This document shows positions 8,181 to 59,760 of a stretch of 64,000 bases of DNA, piece by piece. The position numbers and the translations under genes were made by a program. The notes under the pieces are model-generated. The model worked only from the letters and a program-made list of their open reading frames with translations, had not been told where the DNA came from and did not search any database. The stretch comes from Eledone cirrhosa (lineage: Eukaryota), in the NCBI GenBank assembly GCA_964016885.1, contig OZ024740.1:307024001-307088000 (forward strand), given 5' to 3'. Every line of letters starts with the position of its first letter. Positions within the stretch are counted from its first letter, which is position 1.

Positions 8181-8239
8181 AGCTTTAATTGCCCTGATGA
8201 GTCCTTAATAGAACGAAACATTGTTGGCTAATAAAGACT
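8181..8239 (+). ncRNA. Type I hammerhead ribozyme motif (Penelope pLTR type)
   Basis: GCC-CTGATGA-GTCC ttaata GAAC-GAAA-C att G-TT-GGC; stem I extends (AGCTTTAATTGCC / GGCTAATAAAGACT); AATAAA in the 3' arm. Confidence 0.65.
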
Positions 8240-10200: not shown

Positions 10201-10397
10201 ATATATATATACATACTGTATATATATATATATATATATACATACTGTATATATATATATACTGTATATATATATATATATATATACTGTATATATATAT
10301 ATATACATATATAGGTAAGTTATTCCGGGTTGAATTGGAGGTAATGACAATAAGGAAGGTACTCAATACATAGCAGAGTATAAAAGTTTTAATATAG

Positions 10398-10497
10398 ATG
10401 AGATTCTACAGGACTAGAACTGTTTCATTCTTGAGAAATCATCAGATTCCTGATGATTTCTCAAGAATGAAACAGTTCTAGTCCTGTAGAATCTCAT
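10398..10497. repeat. Perfect 48-bp-arm palindrome (4-nt spacer) in a Penelope pLTR-like remnant
   Basis: Arms 10398-10445 and 10450-10497 are reverse complements. Confidence 0.92.
10444..10494 (+). ncRNA. Type I hammerhead ribozyme motif
   Basis: AGATTC-CTGATGA-tTTC tcaa GAAt-GAAA-CAG ttctagtc CTG-TA-GAATCT: stems I, II and III all pair. Confidence 0.75.
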
Positions 10498-11201: not shown

Positions 11202-11441
11202 CCAAGATATTAATAAATGGAAACTATATTTATAAAACCAGATTTATTTTATTATATATATTTCGCTGGATAGTGAATTTCCAACCGCTAAGGTTGATTT
11301 CCATGGGTATGTCGTTATTTATAAAACAAATTTTGTATTTTATCTGATGAAAGAGCACCAAGATTGACTTGGTCGCCCTTGAAATATATATAATAAAATA
11401 AATCTGGTTTTATAAATATAGTTTCCATTTATTAATATCTT

Positions 11442-11443
<2 letters not shown>
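11202..11443. repeat. 63-bp perfect inverted repeat overlapping a hammerhead motif
   Basis: 11202-11264 is the reverse complement of 11381-11443; (TA)n follows. Confidence 0.9.
11336..11400 (+). ncRNA. Type I hammerhead ribozyme motif
   Basis: TATTTTAT-CTGATGA-AAGAGC ACCAAG attga CTTGGT c GCCCTT-GAAA-TATATA-TA-ATAAAATA; 8-bp stem I, long stem II, palindromic stem III. Confidence 0.8.
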
Positions 11444-11504
<61 letters not shown>

Positions 11505-26734: not shown

Positions 26735-29700
26735 AAATAATTTGACTGTCTGTAATGAGAAACATCTAATAATATTGGCGTTCATGCCTTTCCAAAGAAC
26801 AATTGCAATATAAATGAAGTGAAATAGTCATAAACAAGAATGGAAATGTGGTTGCTCAGTCTATATCACTATACCAAACCTACATATATTATCATACCAA
26901 ACACACATACCATTACATCAAACATCCATACCACTATACTGAATAACCATGCTACTGTATCAACCACACATACCACTATACCAACCACATATACCATTAA
27001 ATCAAACACATATATTATTATGTCAAAGACACAAACCATTATACCAAACCTACATATATTACTATACCAAACATACGTACCATTAAACCAAACATCCATA
27101 CCACTATACCAATCATCCATACCACTATACCAATCATCCATACCACTATACCAATCATCCATACCATTATACCAATCATCCATACCACTATACCAATCAT
27201 CCATACCACTATGTCAACCAGATATACCACTATACCAATCATCCATACCACTATACCAATCATCCATACCACTATACCAATCATCCATACCACTATACCA
27301 ATCATCCATACCACTATACCAATCATCCATACCACTATACCAATCATCCATACCACTATACCAATCATCCATACCACTATACCAATCATCCATACCACTA
27401 TACCAATCATCCATACCACTATACCAATCATCCATACCACTATACCAATCATCCAAACCACTATACCAATTATCCATACCACTATACCAATCATCCATAC
27501 CACTATACCAATCATCCATACCACTATACCAATCATCCAAACCACTATACCAATCATCCATACCACTATACCAATCATCCATACCACTATACCAATCATC
27601 CATACCACTATGTCAACCAGATATACCACTATACCAATCATCCATACCACTATACCAATCATCCAAACCACTATACCAATCATCCATACCACTATGTCAA
27701 CCAGATATACCACTATACCAATCATCCATACCACTATACCAATCATCCAAACCACTATACCAATCATCCATACCACTATACCAATCATCCAAACCACTAT
27801 ACCAATTATCCATACCACTATACCAATCATCCATACCACTATACCAATCATCCATACCACTATACCAATCATCCAAACCACTATACCAATTATCCATACC
27901 ACTATACCAATCATCCATACCACTATACCAATCATCCATACCACTATACCAATCATCCATACCACTATACCAATCATCCATACCACTATACCAATCATCC
28001 ATACCACTATACCAATCATCCATACCACTATACCAATCATCCATACCACTATACCAATCATCCAAACCACTATACCAATTATCCATACCACTATACCAAT
28101 CATCCATACCACTATACCAATCATCCAAACCACTATACCAATCATCCATACCACTATACCAATCATCCAAACCACTATACCAATCATCCATACCACTATA
28201 CCAATCATCCAAACCACTATACCAATCATCCATACCACTATACCAATCATCCATACCACTATACCAATCATCCAAACCACTATACCAAGCACACATACCA
28301 CTATACCAATCATCCATACCACTATACCAATCATCCATACCACTATACCAATCATCCATACCACTATACCAATCATCCATACCACTATACCAATCATCCA
28401 TACCACTATACCAATCATCCAAACCACTATACCAATTATCCATACCACTATACCAATCATCCATACCACTATACCAATCATCCATACCACTATACCAATC
28501 ATCCATACCACTATACCAATCATCCATACCACTATACCAATCATCCATACCACTGTACCAATCACCAAACCACTATACCAATCATCCATACCACTATACC
28601 AATCATCCATACCACTATACCAATCATCCAAACCACTATACCAATCATCCATACCACTATACCAATCATCCATACCGCTATACCAATCATCCATACCACT
28701 ATACCAATCATCCAAACCACTATACCAATCATCCATACCACTATACCAATTATCCATACCACTATACCAAGCACACATACCACTATACCAATCATCCATA
28801 CCACTATGTCAACCAGATATACCACTATACCAAAACAGATATACCACTATACTGAATAACCATGCTACTGTATCAACAAGAAATACCACATTACCAACCA
28901 CACATACGACAATACCAACCAAATATACCACTATATCAACTATACATACCATCATACCAATAACAGATACCACCATACCAAAACAGACACTACTATACCA
29001 ATTATTCATACCACTATACCAAGACAGACATACCACAATACCAAGACAGACATATCACTATACCAAGACAGCTATACCCCTATATCAACCAGTAATACCA
29101 CTATACCAACCAGACATACCACTACACAACCATCCATATCACTACATCAACCAGATATACCACTATACCAATTACTCATACCACTATACCAAAACAGACA
29201 TACCACTATACAACCACCCAAACCACTACACCAACCAGATATACCACTATATCAACCAACAATACCACTATAGCAATCACCTATACCACTATACTAAAAC
29301 AGACAACCTGCTATTTCTTCTTCTCTTGGTAATATGTTTATTAACATCAAAAAAGATAAAAAGAATAAAATGAAATAATAGAAATATAATTCAAAAACGT
29401 TTAAATTCTCCAAAACACTGCAACCATTTGTCGTTGTATATATATATATATATATATTATAGCTAGATAGATGAGTTGTAGAATAGTAAGAAGAGCAAGG
29501 TGTGTTGTAGTTAAAGTCAACTAAACATGATTACTACACTTGCAGCTTTAATGTCAGGTGTTTCTCTTTTAATTGTCTAACCTCTTTAAATATGTTGCAT
29601 GTAAGTGCAGAATTGATTTTGTCACATGTAACAGCAATAGAAAGCATTACAGTGTTCTATTACTGAGAGTAGAGAGAAAATCTATCAACAGCAATGATAT

Positions 29701-29944: not shown

Positions 29945-30191
29945 TATATATGAATGTATATATAGTGTATTTTGCAATACACTGTATGCTTAATTAAAAG
30001 CATTTCGAAGACCTTACGCTATTGTTTTAGAGTAGTGACAGTCTCACTTACTTTAAATTTTCCTCCGTTTGCTGAAAATTTAAAGTAAGTGAGACCGTCA
30101 ATACTCTAAAACAATAGCGTAAGGTCTTCGAAATGCTTTTAATTAAGCATACAGTGTATTGCAAAATACACTATATATACATTCATATATA
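29945..30191. repeat. ~117-bp-arm foldback palindrome (13-nt spacer) with a hammerhead-like remnant
   Basis: 29945-30061 vs 30075-30191 with about 2 mismatches; CTGAAAA at the apex; GAAA-TGCTT ttaatt AAGCA-TA downstream. Confidence 0.88.
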
Positions 30192-35212: not shown

Positions 35213-35497
35213 ATATGAAACACAAATGAACATTTTGAAGACCAACACAATGTGTATGGAGAATGTTAAATTGCCAAGATAACAAACAAATCTTACCTTA
35301 GCAAATTTAATGATCCAAAATATTTTGGGGTTTAAAAACCCATTATCAAGGGAGAGACTTAAAAATCGATCAGAGAGACTTGCTTGTTTGGGAGCAGATT
35401 TAAATTTGCTAAGGTAAGATTCTTTTGTTATCTTAGCAATTTAACATTCTCCATACGCATTGGGTTGGTCTTCAAAATTTAAATTTGTGTTTCATAT
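35213..35497. repeat. ~98-bp-arm imperfect inverted repeat, ~90-nt spacer
   Basis: 35213-35310 vs 35400-35497, bounded by (TA)n. Confidence 0.85.
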
Positions 35498-47469: not shown

Positions 47470-49795
47470 ATCATCATCATCATCATCATCATTTTACGTC
47501 CGCTTTTCCTTGCTTGCAAGGGTGGGATGGATCTTATTCAGCACAGCATCTCTCCACTTGTCACGGTCCTTCGTCATCGACACCGTGAGCTTCAGAGATC
47601 TGAGGTCTGTTCTCACCACCTCCGCCCATGTTTTTTGTGGTCTACCTCTACCACGTCTTCCTTCAACTGGCATTTCCTGGCACTTCTTCCCTCATCGGTC
47701 ATCCTCCATACGCATCACATGTCCATACCACTGCAGTCTCCTCTCTCGCACACTACATTCTATCCCTCTCAGACACAGTTTCTCTCTCAACACATCCATG
47801 CTGGGTTGTTCACGCACATTGACATTGCATATCCAATGCTTCATTTCTCTCCAGTCATCATATATCCTCTGCAGTTGCTGCCCAAGTTTCACTACCATGC
47901 AGCATCGCGCTCCTCACACAGGCATCATATAACCAGCCTTTCGTACGCAGGGAGAAACCCTTCTTTGTCAGCAGAGGAAGCAGCTCCCTAAGCTTCTTCC
48001 AACCCGTCCTTATTCTAGATACTATGGCCTCGGAACACACCCCTCCCATTTTAATCTGATCTCCTAGGTACCGGAAGCCATCCACCACTTCTATAGCACC
48101 CACCTGCATTTGGAAAATGTGTCTATCAATGCGACTTCTACTGTCTAATTTCCCTGTACATCTACTGCATACGTATTTCTCCCTACCTGTTAGTTTGCCT
48201 GCTAGCCCACTACATCTCTTGTGTACCCAGGATCTGCATTGTGTGCATTTTATAGAATTTATGCCAGTTCATTTTCTGCATATTGAACATAGCCATTTCC
48301 CTGACGGAATCAGAGTTTTGTCCTCTTTTCTACTTATCAACACTTTTGTTTTAGCTAGGTTCACTCTTAGTCCTCTTGCTTCCAACTGCTGTTTCCATAG
48401 CCAGAATTTATTCTCTAGCTCCTCTACTGATTCTGCTATAAGAACCAGATCGTCAGCATAGAGAAGTTCCCATGGACAGCCAGTCTTAAACTCCTCTGTT
48501 ATGGCTTGGAGGACTATAATGAACAAGAACAGGCTGAAGACTGAACCTTGATGTACTCCTACTTGTATCTGAAATTCCTCACTAAACTCCATTCCAACCC
48601 TGACTTTACTGACAGCACCTCTGTACAAAGTTTGCACTATCCTCACAAGCCATTCCTTAACACCTAGTTTGTTTAGGGACCATCAGATGACAGATCGGGG
48701 TACCCTATCAAAGGCCTTCTCTAGGTCAACAAAGGCTAAGTATAGTGGCTTATTCTTCTCTAAGAACCTCTCTTGTAATTGTCTGACCAAGAAGAGGGCA
48801 TCTGTTGTACTTTTCCCAGGCACAAAACCAAACTGCATCTCATCTAGTTTGACCCTTTCTCTAATTAGTTGTGCTTATATCCTTTCTGCCACTTTCATAA
48901 CCTGATCCATCAGTTTTATACCCCTATAATTGCTCCTAATCAGAGCATCCCCTTTACCTTTGTAGCAATTTATGAGAATACTGCTGCACCAGTCTTTGAG
49001 TATGACACCACCATATATAGCCTGATTGATGATGCGTGCAACCAGTTTAGTGCCTATGTCCCCTGATGCCTTCAGCATCTCAGCAACTATCCCCGACAGT
49101 CCAGCAGCCTTACCATTTTTCATTTCCTTAATCGTCTCTTGGACCCTATATTCGTCAATCTCAATAGCTGGTTCCTCTGTCGGGTCTACTGAGGGTAATT
49201 TCTCTCTCTCCCATTCGTTCTCCACATTCATCAGTCCCTCGTAATGACATTTCCAGGCCTCCTTTTTCTGATAATTCGTGACACTAAGTACGCCGGCATC
49301 ATTCCGGACACATTTATCTCCAACAATATTCCGATTTGCATTGACACACTGCCTTGCAATGCGGAACACCACACGCCACTGATCTTCCCGTCGCAGAACA
49401 TTGGCAAACCTCCTACTCTCAGCCTCCCTGCGTACTAAGTACACCTGATGTTTAGTTTCTCTCTTAGTGGCTGTATATCCTTCTCTACTCCCACCCTTTT
49501 TCCAAGCCTTCCATACTAGTCTTTTGTCTCTAATGGCCCTATCTACTGTGCTGTTCCACCACCAGGTCACTCTCTGTCTGGTTGGAGCTCTGCTCCAGCC
49601 ACAAGTTTCATCAGTAGCCTGCAGCAAGTTGTCACGTAAGAAATTCTAGTTATTATCTATGTCATACGTCTCTAAATCGTCTTCTTTTTCGTCATATACA
49701 TCTTGAAGGGCTTTCCTAAATTTGTATTTTAGTGAAAGGTCTTTTAGCTTCCAGACCTTTTTTCTCCACACCTTCCTGACCTTCCTGTATGTCTC
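47470..49795 (-). mobile_element. RTE subfamily B, 5'-truncated, with stops and frameshifts
   Basis: TWWWNS, GKAAGLSG, NYRGIKL, LLYADD, PHD-like insert, (GAT)n tail. Confidence 0.92.
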
Positions 49796-50249
49796 ATACA
49801 GAATAATGGACGTAAAATGGTGATGATGATGATGATATATACTTGGAATTTGTAGTTTACTCGAACCATTGTATATGATATAACGAATTTGTAGTTTGAA
49901 AGCCATGAGAATGCAAATAGGACCAATAAACAATTAAGTCGTAAGAAACGGGGAGTGTTTTTTTTACCTTAATTTATTCATATTTTTCCTTAAAAGAAGT
50001 GATATTAATCTCAGAATATCAGGACATGAATAAATTAAGGTAAAAAAACACTCCTCGTTTCTTATAACTTAATTGTTTATTGGTCCTATTTGCAATTTTG
50101 TGGCTTTCAAACTACAAATTCGTTATACAATGGTTCGAGTAAACTACAAATTCCAAGTATATATCATCATCATCATTATCACCATTTTACGTCCATTATT
50201 CTGTATGAGACATACAGGAAGGTCAGGAAGGTGTGGAGAAAAAAGGTCT
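49753..50249. repeat. ~225-bp-arm inverted duplication, 44-nt spacer
   Basis: 49753-49981 vs 50026-50249 with a few mismatches and indels. Confidence 0.92.
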
Positions 50250-52951: not shown

Positions 52952-53338
52952 ATATTGTTATACTTTGGGAGGGTCATGTTGCCAATAAGAAACACACGCA
53001 CCAGTTGCTTTCACTTCAATTTATTATAATAAATTTATAATAAATTTATAAATTTATAAATTTCTGGTTGGTTGGTTGGTTCCACAACCAGATAGTTGTT
53101 TATATATAGTCATAGTTCTTTCGTCACACACTCTGTGACCTCTTCAGTCACTGAAGAGGTCACAGAGTGTGTGACGAAAGAACTATGACTATATATAAAC
53201 AACTATCTGGTTGTGGAACCAACCAACCAACCAGAAATTTATAAATTTATTATAAATTTATTATAATAAATTGAAGTGAAAGCAACTGGTGCGTGTGTTT
53301 CTTATTGGCAACATGACCCTCCCAAAGTATAACAATAT
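52952..53338. repeat. ~190-bp-arm palindrome (3-nt spacer), Penelope pLTR-like
   Basis: 52952-53147 vs 53151-53338, identical except a short AT-rich indel. Confidence 0.95.
53146..53190 (+). ncRNA. Type I hammerhead ribozyme motif
   Basis: AGTCA-CTGAAGA-G GTCACA gagtg TGTGAC-GAAA-GAAC-TA-TGACT. Confidence 0.75.
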
Positions 53339-53417
53339 CGGTTTCAACAAACGATTTCAGATAAAGAATCTTGCTAAACAAATTCAGAAACGAAATATAT
53401 ATATATATATATATATA

Positions 53418-53518
53418 TATAAAGAAAAAGAGATGAAATCGAAAATGCAACTGGAGTCTTATTTTTTTTAAAAATAAGACTCCAGTTGCATTTTCGATTT
53501 CATCTCTTTTTCTTTATA
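53418..53518. repeat. Perfect 49-bp-arm palindrome
   Basis: 53418-53466 vs 53470-53518. Confidence 0.92.
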
Positions 53519-53573
53519 CTTTCACTCGTGTAGGACACCTCGGTTATTTTTCATTTTGTAAAAAAAACCTCAC

Positions 53574-53604
<31 letters not shown>

Positions 53605-55940: not shown

Positions 55941-56253
55941 AGGCACATGGCTTAGTGGTTAGAGCATTGGCCTTGCAATCGAAAGGTTGTGAGTTCAATT
56001 CTCAGACTGGGTGATGTGTTGTTTCCTTGAGCAAGTCACTTTATTTCCCATTGCTCCAGTTTACTCAGATGTAGAAATGAGATGGAAAGTGGTCGTGGAG
56101 GTGCCAAGGCAAAAAAGCACCCAGCACTCACTGTAAATGAGGTTGGTGTTAGGAAAGGCATCCAGCTGTAGAAATCAAGCCAGAATCAATTCCCGTCCCA
56201 GCCTTGCAAGCAGGGAAAAGTGGACATAAAATAATGATGATGAATGATGATGA
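55938..56253 (+). mobile_element. Composite SINE: tRNA head, CORE-like block, GGAAGGGCATCC module, RTE-B 3' tail
   Basis: GGCACATGGCTTAGTGG, GAGTTCAATTC, TCCTTGAGCAAGTCACTT, GTTAGGAAAGGCATCCAGC, CCTTGCAAGCAGGGAAAAGTGGAC, (GAT)n. Confidence 0.8.
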
Positions 56254-57016: not shown

Positions 57017-57484
57017 ACGACAAATGGTTGCAGTGTTTTGGAGAATTTAAACGTTTTTGAATTATATTTCTATTATTTCATTTTATTCTTTTTATCTTTT
57101 TGATGTTAATAAACATATTACCAAGAGAAGAAGAAACAGCAGGTTGTCTGTTTTAGTATAGTGGTATAGGTGATTGCTATAGTGGTATTGTTGGTTGATA
57201 TAGTGGTATATCTGGTTGGTGTAGTGGTTTGGGTGGTTGTATAGTGGTATGTCTGTTTTGGTATAGTGGTATGGGTGATTGTTATAGTGGTATATCTGGT
57301 TGATGTAGTGGTATATCTGGTTGGTGTAGTGGTTTGGGTGGTTGTATAGTGGTATGTCTGTTTTGGTATAGTGGTATGGGTGATTGTTATAGTGGTATAT
57401 CTGGTTGATGTAGTGATATGAGTAGTTGGTGTAGTGGTATATCTGGTTGATGTAGTGATATGGATGGTCGTGTAGTGGTATGTC

Positions 57485-59760
57485 TGGTTGGAATAGTGGT
57501 ATTACTGGTTGATATAGGGGTATTACTGGTTGATATAGTGGTATTACTGGTTGGTATAGTGGTATTACTGGTTGATATAGGGGTATTACTGGTTGATATA
57601 GTGGTATTACTGGTTGGTATAGTGGTATTACTGGTTGATATAGTAGTATTACTGGTTGGTATAGTGGTATTACTGGTTGGTATAGTGGTATTACTGGTTG
57701 ATATAGTGCTATTACTGGTTGGTATAGTGGTATTACTGGTTGATATAGTGCTATTACTGGTTGGTATAGTGGTATTACTGGTTGGTATAGTGGTATTACT
57801 GGTTGGTATAGTGGTATTACTGGTTGATATAGTGGTATTACTGGTTGGTATAGTGGTATTACTGGTTGATATAGTGCTATTACTGGTTGGTATAGTGGTA
57901 TTACTGGTTGATATAGTGGTATTACTGGTTGGTATAGTGGTATTACTGGTTGGTATAGTGGTATTACTGGTTGGTATAGTGGTATTACTGGTTGGTATAG
58001 TGGTATATCTCGTTGATATACGTGTATTACTGGTTGGTATAATGGTATTACTGGTTGATATAGGGGTATTACTGGTTGGTATAGTGGTATTACTGGTTGG
58101 TATAGTGGTATATCTGGTTGATATAGTGGTATTACTGGTTGGTATAGTAGTATTACTGGTTGATATAGGGGTATTACTGGTTGGTATAGTGGTATTACTG
58201 GTTGATATAGTGGTATTACTGGTTGGTATAGTGGTATTACTGGTTGGTATAGTGGTATTACTGGTTGATATAGTGGTATATCTCGTTGATATACGTGTAT
58301 TACTGGTTGGTATAATGGTATTACTGGTTGATATAGGGGTATTACTGGTTGGTATAGTGGTATTACTGGTTGATATAGTGGTATTACTGGTTGGTATAGT
58401 GGTATTACTGGTTGATATAGTGGTATATCTCGTTGATATACGTGTATTACTGGTTGGTATAATGGTATTACTGGTTGATATAGGGGTATTACTGGTTGGT
58501 ATAGTGGTATTACTGGTTGGTATAGTGGTATATCTGGTTGATATAGTGGTATTACTGGTTGGTATAGTAGTATTACTGGTTGATATAGGGGTATTACTGG
58601 TTGGTATAGTGGTATTACTGGTTGGTATAGTGGTATTACTGGTTGGTATAGTGGTATTACTGGTTGATATAGTAGTATTACTGGTTGGTATAGTGGTATT
58701 ACTGGTTGATATAGTGGTATATCTGGTTGATATACGTGTATTACTGGTTGGTATAATGGTATTACTGGTTGATATAGTAGTATTACTGGTTGGTATAGTA
58801 GTATTACTGGTTGGTATAGTGGTATATCTGGTTGGTATAGTAGTATTACTGGTTGATATAGTGGTATTACCGGTTGGTATAGTGGTATTACTGGTTGATA
58901 TAGGGGTATTACTGGTTGGTATAGTGGTATTACTGGTTGGTATAGTGGTATTACTGGTTGATATAGTAGTATTACTGGTTGGTATAGTGGTATTACTGGT
59001 TGATATAGTGGTATTACTGGTTGGTATAGTGGTATTACTGGTTGGTATAATGGTATTACTGGTTGGTATAGGGATATTACTGGTTGATATAGTAGTATTA
59101 CTGGTTGGTATAGTAGTATTACTGGTTGGTATAGTGGTATTACTGGTTGATATAGTGGTATTACTGGTTGGTATAATGGTATTACTGGTTGGTATAGTGG
59201 TATTACTGGTTGGTATAGTGGTATTACTGGTTGATATAGGGGTATTACTGGTTGATATAGTAGTATTACTGGTTGGTATAGTGGTATTACTGGTTGGTAT
59301 AGTGGTATTACTGGTTGATATAGTGGTATTACTGGTTGGTATAGTGGTATTACTGGTTGGTATAGGGGTATTACTGGTTGATATAGTAGTATTACTGGTT
59401 GGTATAGTAGTATTACTGGTTTGTATAGTGGTATTACTGGTTGGTATAGTGGTATTACTGGTTGGTATAGTGGTATATCTGGTTGATATAGTAGTATTAC
59501 TGGTTGGTATAGTGGTATTACTGGTTGGTATAGTGGTATTACTGGTTGATATAGTAGTATTACTGGTTGGTATAGTGGTATTACTGGTTGGTATAGGGGT
59601 ATTACTGGTTGATATAGTAGTATTACTGGTTGGTATAGTAGTATTACTGGTTTGTATAGTGGTATTACTGGTTGGTATAGTGGTATATCTGGTTGATATA
59701 GTAGTATTACTGGTTGGTATAGGGGTAATACTGGTTGGTATAGTAGCATTACTGGTTGGT
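57485..59760. repeat. 21-bp minisatellite (GGTATAGTGGTATTACTGGTT)n
   Basis: Direct reading; source of the 885-aa and 781-aa pseudo-ORFs. Confidence 0.97.

What the first reader, a model, noticed from the sequence alone, without database searches (positions are those of the whole stretch)
52952..53338. Foldback palindromes that turn at a hammerhead ribozyme core
Seen: a ~390-bp palindrome with apex TCTTCAG|TCA|CTGAAGA. The few unpaired apex bases, plus a shared AG, form the stem I 5' strand (AGTCA) of a complete type I hammerhead (53146-53190). An unrelated element at 10398-10497 has the same geometry (TCATCAG|ATTC|CTGATGA), and 30061-30078 looks similar. Established: Penelope-like elements carry minimal type I HHRs in their pseudo-LTRs and often have inverted 5' pLTR segments. 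Inference: the inversion point is not random but tied to the ribozyme, for example RT stalling or template switching at stem I via AG microhomology. The product is an ORF-less, back-to-back double-ribozyme hairpin that might be a non-autonomous mobile RNA or a dsRNA source. I do not know of this apex rule being described, but cannot check.
Basis: partly seen in the sequence, partly recalled or inferred. Interest (0 to 1): 0.82.

Follow-up and report, generated by a model that had tools for sequence, protein, structure and literature searches.

The report
Penelope foldbacks turn at promoter starts
The palindrome is a head-to-head stub of a Penelope-like jumping gene; such stubs turn at a fixed, family-specific point that is likely the start of the element's RNA, and this point falls on the hammerhead ribozyme in only one of the five families examined, so the ribozyme is likely a passenger.

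Summary
The palindrome (52956-53338, plus a one-sided 58-nt tail) and its hammerhead letters are real. It is a 5'-truncated, head-to-head insertion of an abundant Penelope-like element (PLE); an RT + GIY-YIG ORF was found in a longer copy. The proposed apex rule is not general. Genome-wide, the two cores lie 12 nt or less apart in 19 of 3,841 foldbacks sharing this core (0.5%), but in 1,217 of 2,142 (57%) for the second example's family. The third example has no hammerhead core at its apex. What recurs is a family-specific wall where arm 5' ends stop: -6 from the core (B), about -51 to -81 (A), -122 (D), and an initiator-like TCAGT/TTAGT in a core-less family (G). In B and G the wall lies 29-33 nt below a TATA-like box, and some junctions carry an extra G. 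Best reading (inferred; no RNA data): reverse transcriptase runs off the capped 5' end of sense RNA, and two cDNA ends are joined by microhomology. Junction variety shows stubs are rebuilt at each insertion, not a mobile RNA. Similar stubs were noted by this scan in other genomes. I did not find the wall-equals-start-site link in eight paper searches.

The parts
52956..53148 (-). Family A inverted arm without tail; outer end at ORF ATG+22 joined to (TA)n, inner end in stem I
   Evidence: same outer end in many copies
53145..53148 (.). CAGT, 4-nt microhomology shared by both arms (the junction); the same junction in 10 of the 19 close-apex loci, in both orientations
53146..53190 (+). Minimal type I hammerhead motif (core 53151-53157, GAAA 53176-53179, predicted cut after 53185); stem III loop not palindromic; activity untested
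53146..53338 (+). Family A forward arm (3' part of the pseudo-LTR); first codons of the RT ORF start at 53313 (MTLPKY)
   Evidence: 1,246-codon open frame in L061; RVT_1 E 0.002, GIY-YIG E 0.0005, both below curated cut-offs
53339..53396 (+). One-sided 'tail' (continuation into the ORF), then (TA)n
10314..10445 (-). Family B arm with tail (tail about 10314-10390)
10444..10497 (+). Family B tail-less arm, starting at the family wall AGATTC = stem I 5' strand = predicted +1; hammerhead 10444-10494 (stem II weak, no G10.1-C11.1 pair; stem III 4 bp)
29945..30191 (.). Family C foldback; apex not at a hammerhead core (counter-example)
11225..11450 (+). Family H foldback with a hammerhead core at 11344; arms end at about -79 and +37 from the core (counter-example)
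53418..53580 (.). Neighbouring foldback with 49-nt arms and a one-sided extension; no core at the apex (counter-example; family not worked up)

Best explanation
These palindromes are head-to-head stubs of Penelope-like retrotransposons whose arms stop at a fixed family-specific wall, which is likely the transcription start of the element's own promoter, so the hammerhead sits at the apex only where the RNA likely begins with it. Steps: (1, shown) copies sit in (TA)n, have two fixed outer ends, one with a tail, and variable junctions; (2, shown) arm 5' ends pile up at one position per family, at -6, -51 to -81 and -122 from the core, or with no core at all; (3, inferred from motifs) that position is +1 of a capped sense transcript; (4, inferred, using Frangieh 2024) the enzyme primes on both nicked strands at its two internal start sites near the 5' end of that RNA, so each cDNA is short and runs off the cap; (5, inferred from junctions) the two cDNA 3' ends, or one end folding back, are joined through 1-4 nt microhomology, with trimming of one arm and templated inserts. 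The finding's own copy is one of a small minority in family A that joined early at CAGT, a mini-hairpin in stem I.
For: Core-to-core gap <=12: 19 of 3,841 (pooled over families sharing that core, 23 of the first 50 rows being family A) against 1,217 of 2,142 in B. A: 47 of 100 arm ends at -81 to -51, 7 further upstream. D: 17 of 46 at -124 to -121 after hand correction of 3 long copies, 5 beyond. G, no CUGANGA core: 83 of 90 arms met by chance in flanks reach no more than 4 nt above the A of TCAGT/TTAGT, with TATTTA 29-31 nt upstream in 3 of 3 long copies scored. B: TATAAATA 29-33 nt above the A in 22 of 24 upstream rows across four diverged spacer variants, with CCAAT and CACCC-like boxes further up and the tail running into an RT ORF. 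Either arm can be the longer at the apex (tail arm 20, tail-less arm 9, both at the wall 8, of 59), which one self-folding cDNA cannot give. Non-genomic base before +1: G 7, A 1 in G; G 5, T 1 in B, like the cap-derived G of full-length L1 (PMC11702581, passage). In public contigs laid on a B copy the commonest loose end is at -3 and strand-change joints lie at -6 to 0 (one sample).
Against: No RNA-level evidence; the start site is predicted from motifs only, and TATA, Inr, YY1, NRF1 and CCAAT assignments are recalled consensus matches. Families A and D have no clear TATA; D's wall is a palindromic TCATATGA that could itself favour joins. In B the wall and the outer end of stem I coincide, so B alone cannot separate the two ideas, and up to 7 B arms carry inserts matching the stem I 3' strand. 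The B subfamily with slightly longer TATA spacing shows no shift of the wall. Family A has a weak second pile-up of short-arm ends at -11 to +12 (19 of 44 ends in -50..+58, p 0.001, window chosen after looking). Several extra Gs can be read as templated from the opposite arm. Samples are the first rows in genome order, mostly contig C1, with gaps capped at 400; about 5 of 50 A loci had arms under-extended by T-tract expansions.
Confidence: 0.66

Rival explanations
1. Ribozyme-tied turn: after copying both strands of stem I, the cDNA end pairs back on itself, which stops RT and primes the fold-back at stem I.
For: Family B turns at the outer end of stem I in 57% of foldbacks. Inserts reading GAATCTCAT and L166, a pure stem I switch, show such pairing happens. 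Weak secondary enrichment near the core in A.
Against: Families A and D have 5-bp stems I yet turn there in 0.5% of cases. G has an equally sharp wall with no core. Most B junctions use 1-2 nt next to the core, not stem I pairing.
Confidence: 0.14
2. Self-priming on an antisense template from a bidirectional pseudo-LTR promoter makes the head-to-head palindrome (Arkhipova et al. 2013).
For: Proposed in PMC3846280 (Discussion read whole). Family B's tail reads as a perfect splice donor AGGTAAGT on the minus strand.
Against: The wall sits about 30 nt below a sense-strand TATA box in B and G. An antisense RNA would have to end exactly at the sense start site. Frangieh 2024 shows priming on sense RNA on both strands (parts 1-2 read).
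Confidence: 0.08
3. The short foldbacks are a non-autonomous mobile hairpin RNA that is copied as a unit.
For: Very high number (1,217 exact-match B loci; 62 foldbacks in 454 kb of unselected DNA) and a few common junction types.
Against: 31 oriented junction types in 59 copies. The same junction is not closer in tail-arm sequence (0.050 against 0.055; 372 of 2,000 shuffles as low). Arm mismatches seen in more than one copy never share a junction type. The same junction spectrum recurs in a second subfamily.
Confidence: 0.06
4. The wall is an RNA processing site, such as the splice acceptor AG before ATTC (in D. virilis an intron ends at helix I; PMC4209133, passage) or the ribozyme cut.
For: A pyrimidine-rich run and CAG precede ATTC in family B.
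Against: Arms usually keep the G or AG that splicing would remove, and no constant upstream exon follows. The ribozyme cut is about 39 nt downstream of the core start, not at the wall.
Confidence: 0.04
5. Assembly or library fold-back artefact.
For: Perfect long palindromes are a known artefact class (own knowledge).
Against: Tail on one arm only, fixed outer ends, arm mismatches in older copies, family-specific walls, and strand-change joints at the B wall in public contigs.
Confidence: 0.02

Closest known systems
Endonuclease-bearing PLE insertion unit with inverted 5'-truncated copy and tail (Craig et al. 2021, PMC8557442, passages; Arkhipova et al. 2013, PMC3846280, passages and Discussion)
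   Same: Head-to-head inverted truncated copy, one-sided tail, palindrome at the junction, microsatellite targets, pseudo-LTR holding the first codons, TATA plus Inr noted in a pseudo-LTR.
   Different: In the passages read, the truncation point is not mapped or tied to the start site. Tails here are 58-85 nt rather than 30-40. Arkhipova 2013 favours self-priming on an antisense template.
Minimal hammerheads of PLE pseudo-LTRs (Cervera and de la Pena 2014, PMC4209133, passages)
   Same: Type I fold, extra base between 9 and 10.1, very short stem III in family A.
   Different: Family A's stem III loop (GAAC/GGAC) is not palindromic; family B lacks G10.1-C11.1 and has a 4-bp stem III, and its motif is predicted to be the first 51 nt of the mRNA.
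Internal RT initiation in the Poseidon element of anole (Frangieh et al. 2024, PMC11167929, parts 1-2 of 4 read)
   Same: Two RT start sites explain the tail; both strands are cut and extended; hammerhead cleavage is not needed for insertion in vitro.
   Different: No account of the inverted junction in the parts read; the in vitro templates had designed 5' ends.
L1 twin priming and full-length insertions with a cap-derived extra G (PMC11702581, passages)
   Same: Two primed cDNAs joined by microhomology; extra G at complete 5' ends.
   Different: L1 inversions copy non-overlapping parts of one RNA; here both arms copy the same 5'-proximal stretch, giving a palindrome.
Non-LTR retrozymes (bioRxiv 10.64898/2026.07.22.740005, part 1 of 5 read)
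   Same: ORF-less, PLE-derived, type I hammerhead.
   Different: Retrozymes are head-to-tail tandem units; these are single head-to-head stubs rebuilt at each insertion.

Membership tests
Endonuclease-bearing Penelope-like element | Single ORF with RT followed by GIY-YIG endonuclease | tested here: met
   Family A: 1,246-codon open frame in L061 with YVDD and a Cys-rich linker; RVT_1 E 0.002 and GIY-YIG E 0.0005 on sub-regions, below curated cut-offs; whole protein gave 0 hits at E 0.01. Family B: broken frame in L353 with YRDD and GIY-YIG E 0.0045.
Endonuclease-bearing Penelope-like element | Pseudo-LTR with inverted 5'-truncated copy and one-sided tail | tested here: met
Endonuclease-bearing Penelope-like element | Clade by RT phylogeny (Neptune or Nematis type suggested by the Cys linker) | not tested
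   No tree with reference PLEs; linker motif compared with the text of PMC8557442 only.
Minimal type I hammerhead of PLEs | CUGANGA, GAAA and UH with stems I and II | tested here: met
   for 53146-53190 and 10444-10494; not met for 30061-30078
Minimal type I hammerhead of PLEs | Palindromic stem III for dimer folding and G10.1-C11.1 | tested here: not met
   A: GAAC or GGAC in nearly all copies tallied. B: U-U at 10.1-11.1.
Minimal type I hammerhead of PLEs | Self-cleavage | not testable with these tools
   Needs in vitro transcription.
Non-autonomous mobile RNA (retrozyme or MITE-like unit) | Copies share one junction by descent, or form head-to-tail arrays | tested here: not met
   met only in family B
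Start-site wall (this report) | Capped RNA 5' ends at the wall | not testable with these tools
   No RNA run was available to lay; motif spacing and extra G only.

The most novel reading that the evidence does not exclude
Penelope-like elements prime reverse transcription on both target strands from the 5'-proximal start sites of their own capped sense mRNA, so hundreds of thousands of fossil foldbacks record each family's transcription start at base resolution; in one family the mRNA begins with the hammerhead itself, placing a self-decapping switch at +1. This would settle the sense-versus-antisense template question from genome sequence alone.
Probability: 0.4. Interest if true: 0.72.

Novelty: new variant of a known kind. 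Interest (0 to 1): 0.5.

Why it matters
How Penelope-like elements make their inverted copies, and from which RNA strand, is stated as open in the papers read. A sharp, family-specific wall at a predicted start site, reached by either arm and sometimes followed by an extra G, turns that into a direct test with CAGE data or the existing in vitro system, and offers a way to read PLE promoters off a genome. It also removes the need for a ribozyme-driven inversion or a new mobile RNA. The single palindrome in the finding is ordinary.

Tried and rejected
Rfam scan: no hammerhead match at either apex; one at 8188-8232 below the gathering score; miRNA hits are generic hairpins. First search for family B used too long a query and returned a neighbouring element; redone with 60 nt, whose ranking favours two-armed loci, so counts come from pattern searches instead. 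A tail-anchored pattern with wide gaps could not be run, so foldbacks with gaps over 400 nt were not counted. RNA runs: no RNA holder listed. Depth drops upstream of the wall, but upstream variants diverge, so this was not used as evidence. PDB search of the RT-EN half gave only a weak GIY-YIG hit (E 0.24). Imposing the family A monomer fold fails because stem III closes a 2-nt loop. Subfamily test for a TATA-dependent shift of the wall showed no shift. Paper searches found no mapping of PLE inversion points to start sites or ribozymes; Arkhipova 2006, Evgen'ev and Arkhipova 2005 and all supplements were not read and may bear on this. 'Octopus' was my guess at the host from repeat make-up and is untested.

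Full report
Observation. The window palindrome is real. Its arms match exactly from the core outward except for one 8-nt tandem-unit indel, and the right arm continues 58 nt further before (TA)n. A descriptor scan finds type I hammerheads at 53151, 10450 and 11344; Rfam adds a weak one at 8188. The first two sit at foldback apexes. The third example of the finding does not: in 20 family copies CTGAAAA is ordinary sequence and the degenerate motif lies upstream. On the opposite strand stem I is broken in both real examples, and the full hairpin dominates folding, so these are not working double ribozymes.

What it is. The arm is the 3' end of an abundant element: a 16-mer at its ORF start has 34,371 exact matches. 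[quoted passage not shown] The inverted arm stops at ATG+22 and lacks the tail, the layout described for PLE insertions (PMC8557442 and PMC3846280, passages). Family B (10444) is also a PLE: in L334/L353 its tail runs into an RT frame, broken in that copy, with a GIY-YIG end.

Testing the apex rule. Self-complementary patterns count foldbacks over the whole assembly. With the family A-type core, 19 of 3,841 foldbacks have a gap of 12 or less; a flat distribution would give 125. This denominator pools families A, D, E and others (23 of the first 50 rows are A); 11 of the 19 are A, 10 with the window's CAGT junction, in both orientations. With the family B core the figure is 1,217 of 2,142. In 454 kb of unselected DNA, about 7 of 62 foldbacks have a core within 10 nt of the apex, 5 of them B-like (read by eye). 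So the coincidence is a property of one family.

What recurs instead. Mapping both arms of the first 50 of 2,491 family A foldbacks puts 47 of 100 ends at -81 to -51 from the core and 7 further upstream; about five loci were under-extended by T-tract expansions. The pile-up lies just above a YY1-like AAAATGGCG/AAGATGGCG and below an NRF1-like GCGCATGCGC (motifs recalled). In 23 family D foldbacks 17 of 46 ends fall at -124 to -121, after correcting three long copies by hand, with CCAAT about 45 nt upstream. In family B the longer arm reaches -4 to -6 in 46 of 59 short foldbacks, of 68 loci examined, and TATAAATA lies 29-33 nt above the A at -6 in 22 of 24 upstream rows while the spacer varies. 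Family G, met by chance in flanks, has no CUGANGA core, yet 83 of 90 arms stop within 4 nt above the A of TCAGT/TTAGT, with TATTTA 29-31 nt upstream in the 3 long copies scored. Family H looks similar at about -78 but was not counted. PLE promoters and start sites lie in the pseudo-LTR (PMC2377424, PMC8557442, passages), which fits.

Junction anatomy. In B either arm may be the longer: tail arm 20, tail-less arm 9, both at the wall 8, the other 22 carrying inserts, variants or symmetric joins. A single tail-bearing cDNA folding on itself cannot give the last two classes, so two cDNAs are inferred. Where a non-genomic base precedes +1 it is mostly G (7 G to 1 A in family G, 5 G to 1 T in B), as for capped L1 ends (PMC11702581, passage), but several can be templated and I rate this suggestive only. 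Junction type does not follow arm relatedness (372 of 2,000 shuffles as low) and repeated arm mismatches never share a junction type, so stubs are rebuilt each time. Earlier scan notes on other genomes said the same; I tested it here.

Mechanism. Frangieh 2024 (parts 1-2 read) shows a PLE enzyme cutting and extending both strands, starting at two internal sites near the ORF start, without need of ribozyme cleavage. On an mRNA that starts in the pseudo-LTR these sites are only 55-290 nt from the 5' end. Priming there on both strands gives two short cDNAs that run off the cap; joining them by microhomology gives a head-to-head stub with one tail. This step is inferred, not shown.

Against. There is no RNA evidence. 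In B, start site and stem I end coincide, and the subfamily comparison showed no shift. A and D lack a clear TATA, and D's wall is itself a palindrome. Family A shows a weak second enrichment near the core (19 of 44, p 0.001, chosen after looking). Gaps over 400 nt were not sampled. Public contigs support the B wall (commonest loose end at -3, strand-change joints at -6 to 0) but come from one sample that may be the assembly's source.

Verdict. The locus is an ordinary PLE stub and the ribozyme rule fails as a general rule. The non-random wall is real, and its likely identity with the start site was not found in eight searches; older PLE papers and supplements were not read. New variant of a known kind; interest 0.5.

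Noticed in passing
L078:2370-2440, L331, L374, L380 (family G): A very common mini-foldback family related to B in its tail keeps GAAAC, a 6-bp stem III and GUC but has CCAGAAW in place of CUGANGA: a decayed or altered ribozyme right at the predicted +1.
   Followed up: partly
L115-L132 (family C; window 29945-30191): About 330-bp units in head-to-tail repeats with a hammerhead-like motif whose 5' core reads TTTGATAA; retrozyme-like but degenerate.
   Followed up: partly
L061:1789-5529 (-): Open PLE frame with a long Asn/Thr/His-rich insert before the RT, recalling the N-rich inserts of Adineta Penelope ORFs (PMC3846280).
   Followed up: no
L353:600-800; window 10314-10330: Family B tail ends at ACTTACCTTTTAG, a possible splice acceptor before the ATG; the same bases read AGGTAAGT, a perfect donor, on the other strand.
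   Followed up: no
window 8188-8232: Type I hammerhead match (Rfam RF00163, 26.4 bits, below gathering) about 80 nt before a (TA)n run; not at an apex.
   Followed up: partly
window 27056-28665 and 57363-59700: Two long arrays of about 21-nt period with strong opposite GC skew, about 75% complementary to each other.
   Followed up: no
window 49764-50238, 35216-35494, 53418-53580: Further foldbacks of families not worked up; none has a core at the apex. (TA)n runs here collect stacked insertions of several PLE families.
   Followed up: partly
window 55946-56009: tRNA-like match (RF00005, 29.9 bits, just above gathering), possibly a SINE head.
   Followed up: no
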